From contig ML978128.1 in assembly GCA_010015805.1 (NCBI GenBank), positions 682,001-746,000 on the forward strand: 64,000 bases of DNA. Direction: 5' to 3'. The notes beneath the pieces were generated by a model. It had not been told where the DNA came from. It saw only the letters and a program-made list of their open reading frames with translations, and did no database searches. The position numbers were made by a program, and so were the translations under genes. Positions 4,729 to 6,996 of this stretch are shown piece by piece (the stretch's first letter is position 1; the number at the start of each line of letters is the position of its first letter). This stretch comes from Rhizodiscina lignyota. Lineage: Eukaryota.

Positions 4729-5708
4729 TTAGAACGGCTTGTGCCCAGCGTCGAAATGCACCGGCGTCCTTTCACTCGCCCACTGTGTCAAGGCAGCATA
4801 ATCCACACAAATATGCTGCGTTCCATATCCGTTCTCAACCTGCCAGTGTTTGCCTCTTCCTTCAAGCGACGTGTCGGCCGAGCACAGTATGCTTTGACGC
4901 AGATATTCAAGACAGTGTGCTTGGTGATGTGGCTGCCATATTGGCAAGGTACTATTTTCCTCTCTTTTGCCGAGTCCGACCATTAGCACGGTCTACAATT
5001 CTTGCGTTAGCTTGGTTCGCGGATTTCGCTTAGCCCTTTCGAAAGGGGGTGTGCATGGCTTCTGGAGTAGTTCGATCATGCACTTCACCTACCAGGCAAT
5101 GCAGAGAATGGAAGACCGTAAGGACATGACCCTCTTTAATTGTTCCGTTTTGAAAGATGTCTGTCTCGTAAGGCGGATCGATCTGACCAAGGAACTGATA
5201 GTCAGATGACCTTAGCTTCACAAATCCTCTACCTCCTAGACATTTTCAGCAAGCATATTTCGAAACTGAAGCTGTTCATCGTACTTGGATACAGCTTTTG
5301 CCAGTTGTTGTACAGCTCTGTAAGATGAGTGTAGTTACTGAACATGTCTTCGTCCGCGTATACAAGATCAGGGCCAAGGTGAGCATCGTCTCCGAATTCA
5401 ACAATAGCTTTGCGAACTAACTTTTGATTAGCACTGTAACATTTTCTCCCCTCCGTGGCATGCTCTAGCTTACTGTTTGGCCCGTACCCTTTCTCCGTTC
5501 TCTCAGGGACTCGCCGCGACCAAAAGAGTAAGGCGATAAAAATTAGGACAGCTACCACCTCAACCATTGTTCTCCACCCGAAGAGCCCAGAATGCATAGA
5601 AGAATAAGTGAAGAACTCATCTTCCGCACTTCGACCAAGCTCCGAGTCAGTTATTAGATGCTCTTCTTCCGCAATCTTTTCATCTCGGAGTTCTTCACAG
5701 TCCTTCAT
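4729..5708 (-). CDS. DUF3328 / UstYa-family oxidase (4 exons)
   Basis: N-terminal TM helix (VEVVAVLIFIALLFW) plus both UstYa HxxHC motifs: VFHSLHCL and HQAHCLEYLRQSILCSADTSLE, followed by GYGTQHICVDY. Assembled from ORFs 5229-5822, 5030-5221 and 4729-4989 via GT-AG introns. Confidence 0.92.
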
Positions 5709-6798
5709 TGTTGCAACACTGACCCCGTACGCAACATGAAGGCAGTCGACAACGAGCATGAGAATAGTTGCATCGCCCTCGCGATGGAATTGCTCCGGTG
5801 TACCGCTCCAATTATTCCCCACTCTCCGGATATTTGCAACTTCCTTGTCAGGATGTCGAACATGCTGTCTTACTACTACAACAATGCTTGCATTTTGGGT
5901 CGAAAATGAGCCGTGTAATCATTACTCGTCCCTATTCTGGATATCACCCAGGCACATCCGGGATTTCAGGCAAAATCCAAGTTGGAAGTGCCGAAATCTG
6001 GGGAACACGAAGCTAAGGACATAACCCTGGTCGCACATCACGTATTATGCACACAGCCGAATTTATTTCAACGATCATTGCCTTTAATCCGAGTTCGAGA
6101 CAGAATTTACCGGAACATTCCGTTCAATATTTCATTATATTTTGTGGGCATATGTTCAAGCTTCCAGGGATGAACCCGGCGATGAATTGAGCATTGAACA
6201 TATTGATATCTAGAACCCCACTGACAGTCCAGCGAGAAGGCAAGAAATGTGGGAGACCAAACAGACCCGATCTTACATTATGTTAGACTTCAAGACAAGC
6301 CGTTGCTCTAGCCTTCGTATGATGTTACTGAAGAGCACCGGATAATGTCGAAAACGAAGTCTGCGATCTTGGCAATATTCTCCTTTTTGACGAGCTGAAA
6401 GTTCAGGCTTGGACTCTTCGGAACGACATACAACGGATATTCTCGTTTCCAAACAGCCGCTACTCTGAAGCTAGTTGCACATTTCTCCGGAGTCTCTTGG
6501 CGGTACATGTGATCCATACGCATGTTGACGGTGAGGCCAGTTGATGGAAAGAAAGACATCGCTTCTCAACAAGATGGAAAAGCAAATATAACTTGGCCGA
6601 CTGGATTTACCCGAGACGTTGAATATAAATTCAGTCTCAACCGCAACGTATATTGGAAACATCGCAGCACATCAGTCCATCGAGAAGACAAACCTGACTC
6701 TATTCCGAACGATACTCTTCAGGTGAGAAGATTTCCCCCATTACACACTTTGATGTCTTCCGAGTCCTGAAGCGATACAGCATCCATACACGATCATC

Positions 6799-6996
6799 AT
6801 GAAGTTCGCAATCTTCACCACCCTCTTCTTCGTCGCTGCAACGATCGCAGCTCCAACAGCCACTGTTGAGGACCCGGCTACGCTGGCGAGGCGTCAATGC
6901 GATCCACCGCCACCACCAACATGGCTGCCTTGCCCACCAAGCTGCAAAGTGCGCAGGGCTCTCAAGAGTGCTTTCGGATTTGCAGAGGAGGTCTGA
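6799..6996 (+). CDS. 65-aa secreted peptide with signal peptide and RR-flanked Pro/Cys-rich core; candidate RiPP (dikaritin/KEP-like) precursor
   Basis: MKFAIFTTLFFVAATIA signal peptide; good ATG context (ATCATCATG); acidic pro-region; RR-QCDPPPPPTWLPCPPSCKV-RR; divergent from the DUF3328 gene. Confidence 0.7.
   Translation: MKFAIFTTLFFVAATIAAPTATVEDPATLARRQCDPPPPPTWLPCPPSCKVRRALKSAFGFAEEV

What the first reader, a model, noticed from the sequence alone, without database searches (positions are those of the whole stretch)
4729..6996. Minimal two-gene RiPP-like locus: DUF3328/UstYa oxidase divergent from a single-core, Kex2-flanked Pro/Cys/Trp peptide precursor
Seen: a complete DUF3328 gene (TM anchor, two HxxHC motifs) sits head-to-head (~1.1 kb) with a 65-aa ORF: signal peptide, acidic spacer, RR, QCDPPPPPTWLPCPPSCKV, RR, short tail. 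The pair lies between the housekeeping genes RPB10 and IES6. Known: UstYa/DUF3328 oxidases cross-link Kex2-processed cores in dikaritins (ustiloxin, phomopsin, asperipin-2a), whose precursors are usually multi-repeat with Tyr-containing cores. Here there is one core, no Tyr, one Trp, three Cys (an odd number), a Pro5 run and an N-terminal Gln (possible pyroglutamate). Inference: a distinct fungal RiPP chemotype, possibly one disulfide plus an oxidative Trp-Cys or other Trp cross-link. WLPCP loosely recalls phallotoxin cores (AWLATCP/AWLVDCP), but that comparison is speculative.
Basis: partly seen in the sequence, partly recalled or inferred. Interest (0 to 1): 0.8.

Follow-up and report, generated by a model that had tools for sequence, protein, structure and literature searches.

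The report
Secreted peptide gene beside UstYa oxidase
A wood fungus carries a real but unannotated gene for a tiny secreted, protease-processed Pro/Cys-rich peptide right next to a UstYa-type peptide-modifying oxidase, a plausible but unproven two-gene recipe for a new kind of modified fungal peptide.

Summary
The window is from Rhizodiscina lignyota (Dothideomycetes). A four-exon UstYa/DUF3328 gene lies at 4729-5708 on the minus strand. It has a PF11807 match, one TM segment, and HSLHC and HQAHC motifs. Its start codon is 1090 bp from that of a 65-aa ORF at 6799-6996 on the plus strand. RPB10-like and Ies6-like (YL1_C) housekeeping genes flank the pair.

New here: the small ORF is a real gene that the public annotation lacks.
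- It has one full-length homologue, P0003 (63 aa, about 60% identical, E 3.6e-13 against 1.84 billion proteins). Start, stop, both dibasic sites and a 12/12 identical block LPCPPSCKVRRA are shared.
- Its codon usage is gene-like.
- Its N-terminus resembles the yeast alpha-factor leader.

P0003 has four Cys and one Tyr. The window's only Trp aligns with one of those Cys. A Trp cross-link is therefore not a family trait, and the odd Cys count looks like a Cys-to-Trp change.

The link to the oxidase rests on adjacency and published base rates only. No RNA data, fungal genomes or the homologue's contig could be reached.

Verdict: a credible single-core, non-repeat UstYa-associated RiPP candidate (about 45%), against coincidental adjacency of an ordinary disulfide peptide (about 35%). 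Interest is moderate.

The parts
4729..5708 (-). UstYa/DUF3328 oxidase gene (P0001, NA57DRAFT_77469, 257 aa). Exons are 5708-5474, 5416-5285, 5235-5093 and 4992-4729. It has a TM segment at aa 45-63, HSLHC at aa 165-169 and HQAHC at aa 193-197.
   Evidence: PF11807 E 1.7e-20; the spliced model reproduces P0001 exactly.
5709..6798 (.). Shared 1090-bp divergent intergenic (promoter) region. TATAAAT lies at 6624-6630, 169 bp upstream of the peptide ATG.
   Evidence: Sequence read directly. No other convincing gene lies in it.
6799..6996 (+). Unannotated 65-aa prepropeptide gene, stop codon included.
   Evidence: ORF. (absent from the protein database, while P0001 is present). (codon score). (homologue P0003).
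6799..6849 (+). Predicted signal peptide, MKFAIFTTLFFVAATIA. The cleavage point is approximate.
   Evidence: The profile of A1 matches the yeast mating-factor-alpha leader in PDB fusion constructs at residues 1-23, E 0.026. Heuristic. SignalP was not available.
6850..6894 (+). Pro-region APTATVEDPATLARR, ending in dibasic site 1 (LARR|Q). P0003 has LAKR|Q.
6895..6951 (+). Single putative core QCDPPPPPTWLPCPPSCKV (19 aa). The N-terminal half is variable. The C-terminal LPCPPSCKV is identical in P0003.
6922..6924 (+). TGG codon of Trp42. It aligns with a Cys of the 4-Cys homologue.
   Evidence: alignment. (sequence identical in an independent contig).
6952..6993 (+). Dibasic site 2 (RR) plus the conserved 12-aa tail ALKSAFGFAEEV. 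The FGF.EE motif is shared with P0003.

Best explanation
The locus is a two-gene island between housekeeping genes in Rhizodiscina lignyota.

Gene 1 encodes a membrane-anchored UstYa/DUF3328 oxidase.

Gene 2 is unannotated and encodes a 65-aa prepropeptide. The expected steps are:
- The signal peptide takes it into the ER.
- Kexin (Kex2) cuts after LARR and after KVRR, and a carboxypeptidase trims the RR.
- A 19-residue Pro/Cys-rich peptite is released. Its N-terminal Gln can cyclise to pyroglutamate, and two of its three Cys can form one disulfide.
- A conserved 12-residue tail is also released.

Most likely reading (inferred, not shown): the neighbouring UstYa oxidase modifies this peptide oxidatively in the secretory pathway, before or around kexin cleavage. 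The invariant block LPCPPSCKVRRA and/or the FGF.EE tail would serve as the recognition element. The variable segment just upstream would be the site of modification; it holds an aromatic residue within two positions of the invariant Leu-Pro-Cys (TW in the window, Y-C in the homologue). That would make it a minimal, single-core, non-repeat relative of the dikaritin pathways.

Shown here: both genes are real and intact, their arrangement, and the conservation of processing sites and framework.

Inferred: secretion, kexin processing, any UstYa-peptide relation, and the chemistry.
For: Gene reality:
- A full-length homologue, P0003, has the same start, stop and both dibasic sites.
- Without the signal peptide the match is 25/40 identical, 48 bits.
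- The codon score lies in the range of long ORFs and above 97.5% of 197 small ORFs.
- The features are rare among 316 small ORFs of the window.
- The leader resembles the alpha-factor prepro leader.

Oxidase:
- PF11807 scores 74.3 bits, with two HxxHC motifs, a TM segment and clean GT-AG introns.

Linkage prior (PMC7329392, passages read):
- 22% of 7878 Kex2-processed repeat proteins have a DUF3328 gene within 15 genes.
- 31.8% of 9399 DUF3328 genes lie near such a precursor.
- The count peaks at the adjacent position.

Arrangement:
- The genes are divergent, with a shared 1090-bp region.
- Both are non-housekeeping genes, together between RPB10, Ies6-like, WDR75-like and Arp-like genes.

Precedent for non-repeat cases:
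- UstY clusters in lichens hold signal-peptide/Kex2 genes without repeats. The authors suggest they may represent a single core peptide (PMC12048977, passages read).

Conservation pattern:
- Leader, C-terminal block and tail are conserved around a variable stretch. This fits a recognition-plus-variable-core design (two sequences only).
Against: - No evidence of any kind ties the oxidase to the peptide beyond adjacency in one genome.
- By the same survey, about 68% of DUF3328 genes are not near a Kex2-processed precursor. The passages read also describe the family in non-ribosomal pathways.
- The precursor lacks the tandem repeats and, in this species, the Tyr that mark known dikaritin cores.
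- The homologue's four Cys suggest a plain two-disulfide peptide that needs only ER disulfide isomerases.
- The window's Trp aligns with one of those Cys, so neither the Trp nor the odd Cys count is a family feature.
- Only one homologue was found in 1.84 billion representatives, and its genomic context is unknown.
- Expression is unknown.
- The membrane topology of the oxidase was not established. The charges flanking the TM segment, read from the P0001 sequence, do not clearly place the catalytic domain in the lumen.
- No tyrosinase, methyltransferase or transporter appeared among the 10 ORFs scanned up to 22.6 kb.
Confidence: 0.45

Rival explanations
1. Coincidental neighbours. The small gene encodes an ordinary Kex2-processed, disulfide-stabilised secreted peptide (antimicrobial, effector-like or signalling) that needs no dedicated enzyme. 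The UstYa oxidase works on some other substrate. The window's copy has simply lost one of four framework cysteines (Cys to Trp, one base change from TGC/TGT to TGG).
For: - P0003 has four Cys in a C-x6-C-x2-C-x3-C pattern. The window has C, W, C, C at the aligned positions.
- About 68% of DUF3328 genes are not near Kex2-processed precursors (PMC7329392).
- There are no repeats, no Tyr, and no other tailoring or transport genes nearby.
- A signal peptide plus a pro-region ending in KR/RR is the common build of small secreted fungal peptides (general knowledge, recalled).
Against: - A small secreted, dibasic-flanked peptide gene immediately beside, and divergent from, one of the few UstYa genes of a genome is uncommon by chance. 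My rough estimate is a few per cent per UstYa gene.
- The short core bracketed by two conserved kexin sites, with a conserved discarded tail, is more typical of processed or modified peptides than of folded cysteine-rich proteins.
- An unpaired Cys in a secreted 19-mer is awkward for a purely disulfide-stabilised peptide.
Confidence: 0.35
2. An unmodified processed signalling peptide (pheromone- or hormone-like). The pyroglutamyl Pro/Cys-rich 19-mer and/or the conserved 12-mer tail would be the active product, and the UstYa gene would be irrelevant.
For: - The prepro architecture resembles alpha-factor-type precursors. The leader matches the MF-alpha leader at E 0.026.
- An N-terminal Gln directly follows the kexin site.
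- The tail is conserved (7 of 12 identical, FGF.EE). P0003 has a further KR inside the tail.
- In the survey, mating-factor and pheromone precursors are almost never accompanied by DUF3328 genes. If this is a pheromone, the neighbour is chance.
Against: - There is a single copy rather than repeats.
- The core half nearest the N-terminus is hypervariable between the two members (1 of 8 positions identical between QC and LPC).
- No similarity to any Pfam pheromone family was found.
- Adjacency to a UstYa gene argues the other way.
Confidence: 0.08
3. A decaying or silent remnant. The peptide gene is conserved by descent but no longer functional in this species (loss of a framework Cys, not annotated, perhaps not expressed). 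The pair then has no present-day joint function.
For: - The gene is absent from the deposited protein set, although the neighbouring P0001 is present.
- The Cys-to-Trp change breaks the even Cys count.
- A short upstream ATG (6753-6770) precedes the start codon.
Against: - The ORF is intact, with start, stop, both dibasic sites and the 12/12 block preserved at about 60% overall identity.
- Codon usage is gene-like.
- Genes this short are routinely missed by eukaryotic annotation pipelines (general knowledge).
Confidence: 0.07

Closest known systems
Dikaritin pathways (ustiloxin, phomopsin, asperipin-2a, victorin): a Kex2-processed precursor plus UstYa/DUF3328 oxidase(s)
   Same: - A UstYa-family gene with two HxxHC motifs sits next to a gene for a signal-peptide-bearing precursor whose short core is bracketed by dibasic kexin sites.
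- As with asperipin-2a, a single DUF3328 gene can suffice (PMC7329392).
- P0003's Y-C-L-P has the same Tyr-x-aliphatic-Pro spacing as the YVIP core quoted in that paper.
   Different: - One core instead of tandem repeats.
- The core is 19 residues with three Cys and no Tyr in this species.
- No tyrosinase, methyltransferase or transporter is nearby.
- No product is known.
UstY-containing 'Clan R1/R2' clusters of Parmeliaceae lichens (PMC12048977)
   Same: UstY homologues are accompanied by genes with signal peptides and Kex2 sites but without repeated cores. The authors raise the possibility of a single core peptide (passages read).
   Different: - Those clusters carry many accessory genes (tyrosinase, methyltransferases, GNAT acetyltransferases).
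- Here there are only two genes.
[quoted passage not shown]
Acalitide (AcaA/AcaB) of Acaulium album (PMC10840396)
   Same: A fungal RiPP from a single-core, non-repeat precursor of 81 aa, with disulfide bridges thought to be made by ER disulfide isomerases (passages read).
   Different: - Its maturation enzyme is a macrocyclising peptidase, not a UstYa oxidase.
- Two CxxxC pairs give two disulfides and a head-to-tail lactam.
- There is no sequence similarity.
Kex2-processed repeat proteins (KEPs) and alpha-factor-type pheromone precursors
   Same: A signal peptide, a pro-region and dibasic cleavage that releases short peptides. The leader resembles the MF-alpha leader.
   Different: - No repeats.
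- Pheromone-type KEPs are almost never next to DUF3328 genes.
Amatoxin/phallotoxin (MSDIN) precursors
   Same: Only a loose likeness, a Trp a few residues before a Cys-Pro.
   Different: - This precursor has a secretion signal and kexin sites.
- The Trp is not conserved (it is Cys in the homologue).
- The organism is an ascomycete.
- No prolyl oligopeptidase appeared among the 10 neighbouring ORFs scanned.

Membership tests
UstYa / DUF3328 (PF11807) oxidases | Match to PF11807 above the gathering score | tested here: met
   P0001 scores 74.3 bits against a cutoff of 25, E 1.7e-20, residues 112-245 on profile positions 82-220 of 220. The last exon alone scores 57.7 bits.
UstYa / DUF3328 (PF11807) oxidases | Two HxxHC motifs | tested here: met
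   HSLHC at 165-169 and HQAHC at 193-197. The lichen paper describes two conserved HXXHC motifs as the hypothesised active site (PMC12048977).
UstYa / DUF3328 (PF11807) oxidases | Single N-terminal membrane anchor with the catalytic domain in the secretory lumen | tested here: inconclusive
   A hydrophobic segment lies at 45-63. The AF2 helix spans 27-65, the only part with pLDDT 67-85. Orientation was not established: the flanking charges are ambiguous, and the three N-x-S/T sequons in the C-terminal domain decide nothing.
UstYa / DUF3328 (PF11807) oxidases | Oxidative (reported copper-dependent) peptide-modifying activity | not testable with these tools
   Only the title of Chiang, Ohashi and Tang, JACS 2025, was seen, in a reference list. 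The paper is not held.
Dikaritin-type RiPP locus | [quoted passage not shown] | tested here: met
   Heuristic rule and a match of residues 1-23 to the MF-alpha leader. SignalP was not available.
Dikaritin-type RiPP locus | Core flanked by Kex2 (KR/RR) sites | tested here: met
   LARR|Q and KVRR|A, both conserved in P0003 as LAKR|Q and KVRR|A. Cleavage itself was not tested.
Dikaritin-type RiPP locus | Tandemly repeated core/recognition units | tested here: not met
   There is one core in 65 aa. tblastn found no second copy anywhere in the window.
Dikaritin-type RiPP locus | Tyr in the core (site of the ether cross-link in ustiloxins, phomopsins and asperipin-2a) | tested here: not met
   The window peptide has no Tyr. 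P0003 has one. In the survey, 65.6% of the repeated sequences of DUF3328-accompanied KEPs contain Tyr, so Tyr is frequent but not universal.
Dikaritin-type RiPP locus | DUF3328 gene within a few genes of the precursor gene | tested here: met
   The genes are immediate neighbours, 1090 bp apart and divergent.
Dikaritin-type RiPP locus | Accessory genes (tyrosinase, methyltransferase, transporter, peptidase) | tested here: not met
   The 10 ORFs scanned between 656 and 22618 are WDR75-like, RPB10, YL1_C, actin-related, SDR, RCC1, LRR, PPR and two without a family. Later definitions do not require all of these genes (PMC12048977).
Dikaritin-type RiPP locus | Co-occurrence of precursor and oxidase across genomes, and an enzyme-dependent modified product | not testable with these tools
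   No fungal genomes are held. No RNA run was listed.
Disulfide-stabilised small secreted cysteine peptides | Conserved even-numbered Cys framework | tested here: not met
   P0003 has 4 Cys. The window peptide has 3, with Trp42 at the fourth position. The feature is met for the homologue and not for the window's copy.
MSDIN (amatoxin/phallotoxin) precursors | Leaderless cytosolic precursor with a conserved MSDIN-type N-terminus and Pro-flanked core | tested here: not met
   The peptide begins MKF with a hydrophobic secretion signal, and its core is flanked by RR. The family definition is recalled, and partly stated in PMC10840396.

The most novel reading that the evidence does not exclude
In this species a framework cysteine has been replaced by tryptophan at exactly the aligned position (C40 of the homologue, W42 here). 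The neighbouring UstYa oxidase might join that Trp to the now unpaired Cys, or to another residue. That would replace a disulfide with a tryptathionine-like or other Trp cross-link. It would be the first secretory-pathway (Kex2/UstYa) route to such a link, from a single-core, pyroglutamyl, Pro-rich precursor: a new fungal RiPP class encoded by two genes.
Probability: 0.05. Interest if true: 0.85.

Novelty: new variant of a known kind. Interest (0 to 1): 0.5.

Why it matters
Fungal RiPP mining tools look for tandemly repeated, Tyr-bearing Kex2 precursors next to DUF3328 genes, and most DUF3328 genes have no assigned substrate. Suppose single-core, unannotated precursors of about 60 aa such as this one are genuine UstYa substrates. 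Part of that 'orphan' population would then be explained. Mining rules would need to include short non-repeat ORFs that annotation misses. UstYa chemistry would also extend to Cys/Pro-rich peptides.

The locus is small (two genes, about 2.3 kb), so the idea can be tested directly by co-expression. Whatever the outcome, the report adds an unannotated conserved secreted-peptide gene family with two members so far and no Pfam family.

Tried and rejected
RNA evidence:
- No RNA holder was listed for window 4000-9100, so expression and splicing could not be examined.

Whole genome and earlier findings:
- Neither was available.

Cluster look-up for P0003, P0001 and the peptide:
- The tool that fetches contigs by protein is closed, so the 13,993-b contig of P0003 was never seen.

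Metagenome scan with the two-sequence alignment:
- 136 pattern matches gave 1 tblastn-confirmed locus, L001.
- L001 is a chance match (RWLPCPPSCKM) in an alternative frame of a contig whose other reading frames carry long ORFs. Rejected.

phmmer hit P0002:
- It is a 1175-aa chain of 13 identical units.
- It matched only through a PPPPPT stretch. Rejected as an artefact or low-complexity match.

ESM Atlas:
- The best feature score was 0.76, below the level of a lead.

Complex prediction, oxidase residues 64-257 with peptide residues 19-65:
- No verdict, score 0.00, controls not run.

AlphaFold2:
- The peptide (two-row alignment) gave mean pLDDT 58.5.
- P0001 (single sequence) gave 41.8.
- Both are too poor to use, so no fold search was made.

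PDB sequence searches:
- No relative of P0001 was found.
- For the peptide profile, only leader-sequence matches appeared.

Composition and repeats around the island:
- Nothing marks an insertion.

Other open frames in 5700-8480:
- None has a Pfam match above its cutoff.

Literature:
- One search on the bare word 'UstYa' was swamped by an author surname.
- 'asperigimycin' gave 2 papers that mention it once each.
- The JACS 2025 paper on a copper-dependent DUF3328 enzyme is not held.
- The motif CPPSCKV occurs in no held paper.

Considered and rejected:
- Exon 1 of a larger protein. The stop position is conserved in P0003.
- Assembly error at the Trp codon.
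Full report
ORGANISM AND LOCUS

The N-terminal exon of the oxidase gene retrieved a single database protein, P0001. It is named 'hypothetical protein NA57DRAFT_77469 [Rhizodiscina lignyota]' in NCBI and 'Oxidase ustYa' in UniRef. It is 257 aa and lies on a 1.87-Mb contig. 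Four window exons reproduce it exactly: 5708-5474, 5416-5285, 5235-5093 and 4992-4729 on the minus strand, with GT-AG introns of 57, 49 and 100 nt. The window is therefore from Rhizodiscina lignyota (Dothideomycetes, Aulographales). The species appears in a search listing under the paper '101 Dothideomycetes genomes' (PMC7082219; listing only).

THE OXIDASE

- P0001 matches Pfam UstYa (PF11807) at 74.3 bits against a cutoff of 25, E 1.7e-20.
- It has HSLHC at 165-169 and HQAHC at 193-197.
- It has a hydrophobic segment at residues 45-63 and three N-x-S/T sequons in the C-terminal domain.
- It has no relative among solved structures.
- A single-sequence AlphaFold2 model was unusable, with mean pLDDT 41.8.
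- The gene looks intact and is a regular family member.
- Its membrane orientation was not established here.

THE SMALL ORF IS A REAL GENE

ORF length alone means nothing. The same intergenic stretch holds several ORFs of 65-88 aa, and one minus-strand frame (6308-6565) has the same total codon score. Four results lift this ORF above chance:

1. A phmmer search of 1.84 billion representative proteins gave 2 hits at E of 0.001 or better.
   - P0002 is a 1175-aa chain of 13 identical units that matched only through a proline run. I reject it.
   - P0003 is a 63-aa protein aligned end to end, E 3.6e-13, about 60% identical.
   - Without the signal peptide the match is still 25/40 identical, 48 bits.
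   - Start, stop, both dibasic sites and a 12-residue block LPCPPSCKVRRA are identical. The ORF is therefore complete, not the first exon of a larger gene.
2. Codon usage is 0.191 bits/codon. Eighteen ORFs of 250 aa or more average 0.162, and 197 ORFs of 50-100 aa average 0.029. 2.5% of the latter reach its score.
3. By a crude, post-hoc signal-peptide rule, 2 of 316 ORFs of 40-120 aa in the window look signal-like. Only this one also has two [KR]R sites. The profile of the two peptides matches the yeast alpha-factor leader in PDB constructs at residues 1-23, E 0.026.
4. An independent Logan contig, probably from the same source, is identical over 4600-7200 at word depth about 153.

The peptide is absent from the 5.8-billion-protein collection that does hold P0001. 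It is therefore unannotated in the public record. It has no Pfam family.

WHAT THE HOMOLOGUE CHANGES

The identity figures below are my own counts on the alignment.

| Segment | Identical positions |
|---|---|
| Signal peptide | 10 of 18 |
| Pro-region | 7 of 14 |
| Core | 12 of 19 |
| RR site | 2 of 2 |
| Tail | 7 of 12 |

- Within the core, the stretch between the first Cys and Leu-Pro-Cys is almost wholly different (DPPPPPTW in the window, PGGGDYC in P0003).
- LPCPPSCKV is invariant.
- P0003 has four Cys and one Tyr.
- The window has Cys, Trp, Cys, Cys at the aligned positions and no Tyr.
- The Pro5 run, the Trp and the odd number of Cys are therefore features of this species, not of the family.
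- The simplest reading of Trp42 (TGG) is a one-base change from a Cys codon.
- P0003's Y-C-L-P has the same spacing as the Tyr-x-Ile-Pro core of phomopsin quoted by Umemura (PMC7329392), where Tyr and the residue two positions on are joined. With two sequences this is only a lead.

SURROUNDINGS

The pair sits between the following genes:
- a WDR75-like gene at 656-3352 (-);
- a Lys/Glu-rich ORF without a family at 3345-4004 (-);
- RPB10 (RNA_pol_N) at 4348-4521 (+);
- a YL1_C (Ies6-like) gene at 8481-9053 (-);
- then an actin-related protein, an SDR, an RCC1 protein and others.

The 10 scanned ORFs include no tyrosinase, methyltransferase, transporter or peptidase. The window holds no second copy of the peptide and no second UstYa gene. 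The best non-self tblastn E-values were 0.093 and 0.027. Composition and repeats do not mark the island as an insertion.

IS THE OXIDASE LINKED TO THE PEPTIDE?

This could not be tested.
- No RNA run was listed.
- No fungal genome collection is held.
- P0003 is known only from one Logan contig of 13,993 b.
- The metagenome scan gave only a chance hit.
- The complex prediction gave no verdict.

The case therefore rests on priors from Umemura 2020 (PMC7329392; passages read):
- 22% of 7878 Kex2-processed repeat proteins have a DUF3328 gene within 15 genes.
- 31.8% of 9399 DUF3328 genes lie in such neighbourhoods.
- The count peaks at the adjacent gene.

Against this, all characterised precursors are repeats. 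About two thirds of DUF3328 genes have no such neighbour. The first-stage reader also selected this locus because of the adjacency. A lichen study describes UstY clusters with signal-peptide/Kex2 genes lacking repeats and raises the single-core possibility (PMC12048977; passages read). Acalitide shows that single-core, disulfide-bridged fungal RiPPs exist, though made by a peptidase (PMC10840396; passages read).

I put the functional pairing at about 0.45 and coincidental adjacency of an ordinary disulfide peptide at about 0.35. Smaller shares go to an unmodified signalling peptide and to a decaying gene.

MECHANISM PROPOSED

Inferred except where stated:
1. ER entry through the signal peptide.
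2. Disulfide formation.
3. Oxidative modification by the UstYa enzyme, guided by the invariant LPCPPSCKVRRA block and/or the FGF.EE tail.
4. Kexin cleavage after LARR and KVRR.
5. Carboxypeptidase trimming.
6. Pyroglutamate formation.

Masses for testing are given.

The chemistries reported for the family, in passages and titles seen here, are ether macrocyclisation at Tyr, hydroxylation, chlorination, transacylation and dehydro-amino-acid formation. A copper dependence is stated only in a title seen in a reference list. I recall, from no call, that a 2025 paper reports DUF3328-dependent Trp-containing cross-links (asperigimycins). The two held papers only mention the name.

NOVELTY AND SEARCHES FOR PRIOR REPORTS

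- The peptide has no Pfam family.
- The motif CPPSCKV occurs in none of the held papers.
- Four motif strings were absent from the 4 lichen-paper supplements held as text.
- Searches for 'dikaritin' with 'single core' and for 'UstYa', 'disulfide' and 'fungal RiPP' listed no title or abstract describing a characterised single-core or Cys-rich UstYa substrate.
- Subscription papers, and supplements not held, may contain such cases.

I class the locus as a possible new variant of a known kind. Interest is moderate: it is a cheap, well-defined test case, but nothing yet shows that it works as proposed.

Noticed in passing
window 6624-6630, 6723-6780, 6753-6770: Three features lie upstream of the peptide ATG. 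A TATAAAT box sits 169 bp upstream. A candidate 58-nt GT-AG intron lies in the 5' leader. Inside that candidate intron is a five-codon upstream ORF (ATG at 6753, TGA ending at 6770), which splicing would remove. All three were read from the sequence only, with no RNA data.
   Followed up: no
window 6308-6565 (-): An 85-codon open frame in the shared intergenic region has the same total codon score (12.7 bits) as the peptide frame. It has no Pfam match above cutoff (best hit DUF2695, E 0.25). It may be chance or an unrecognised exon or gene.
   Followed up: partly
protein P0002 (database hit, not in the window): A 1175-aa predicted protein made of 13 exact copies of one unit, each ending in ...ERPPPPPTYLSI. 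It looks like a rolling-circle or assembly artefact. It reached E 3.8e-16 only by summing 13 low-complexity matches, a reminder that repeat proteins inflate phmmer scores for Pro-rich queries.
   Followed up: partly
window 3342-4004 (-): A 220-aa Lys/Glu/Ser-rich ORF without any Pfam family lies between the WDR75-like gene and RPB10. It is probably a nucleolar or ribosome-biogenesis-type low-complexity protein.
   Followed up: no
window 33792-35045 (-) and 33978-35048 (+): Two long ORFs (417 and 356 aa) overlap almost completely on opposite strands. Their codon scores are 0.239 and 0.118. The plus-strand one is presumably a shadow ORF.
   Followed up: no
L001 10001-10045: The only metagenome 'relative' of the peptide is RWLPCPPSCKM, in an alternative reading frame of a contig whose other frames hold long ORFs (RCUR01000072.1). 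It is a chance match.
   Followed up: yes
window 6799-6996: The peptide gene is missing from the deposited protein set of this genome, although its neighbour P0001 is present. Short intronless secreted-peptide genes of this kind are likely under-annotated in fungal genomes.
   Followed up: partly
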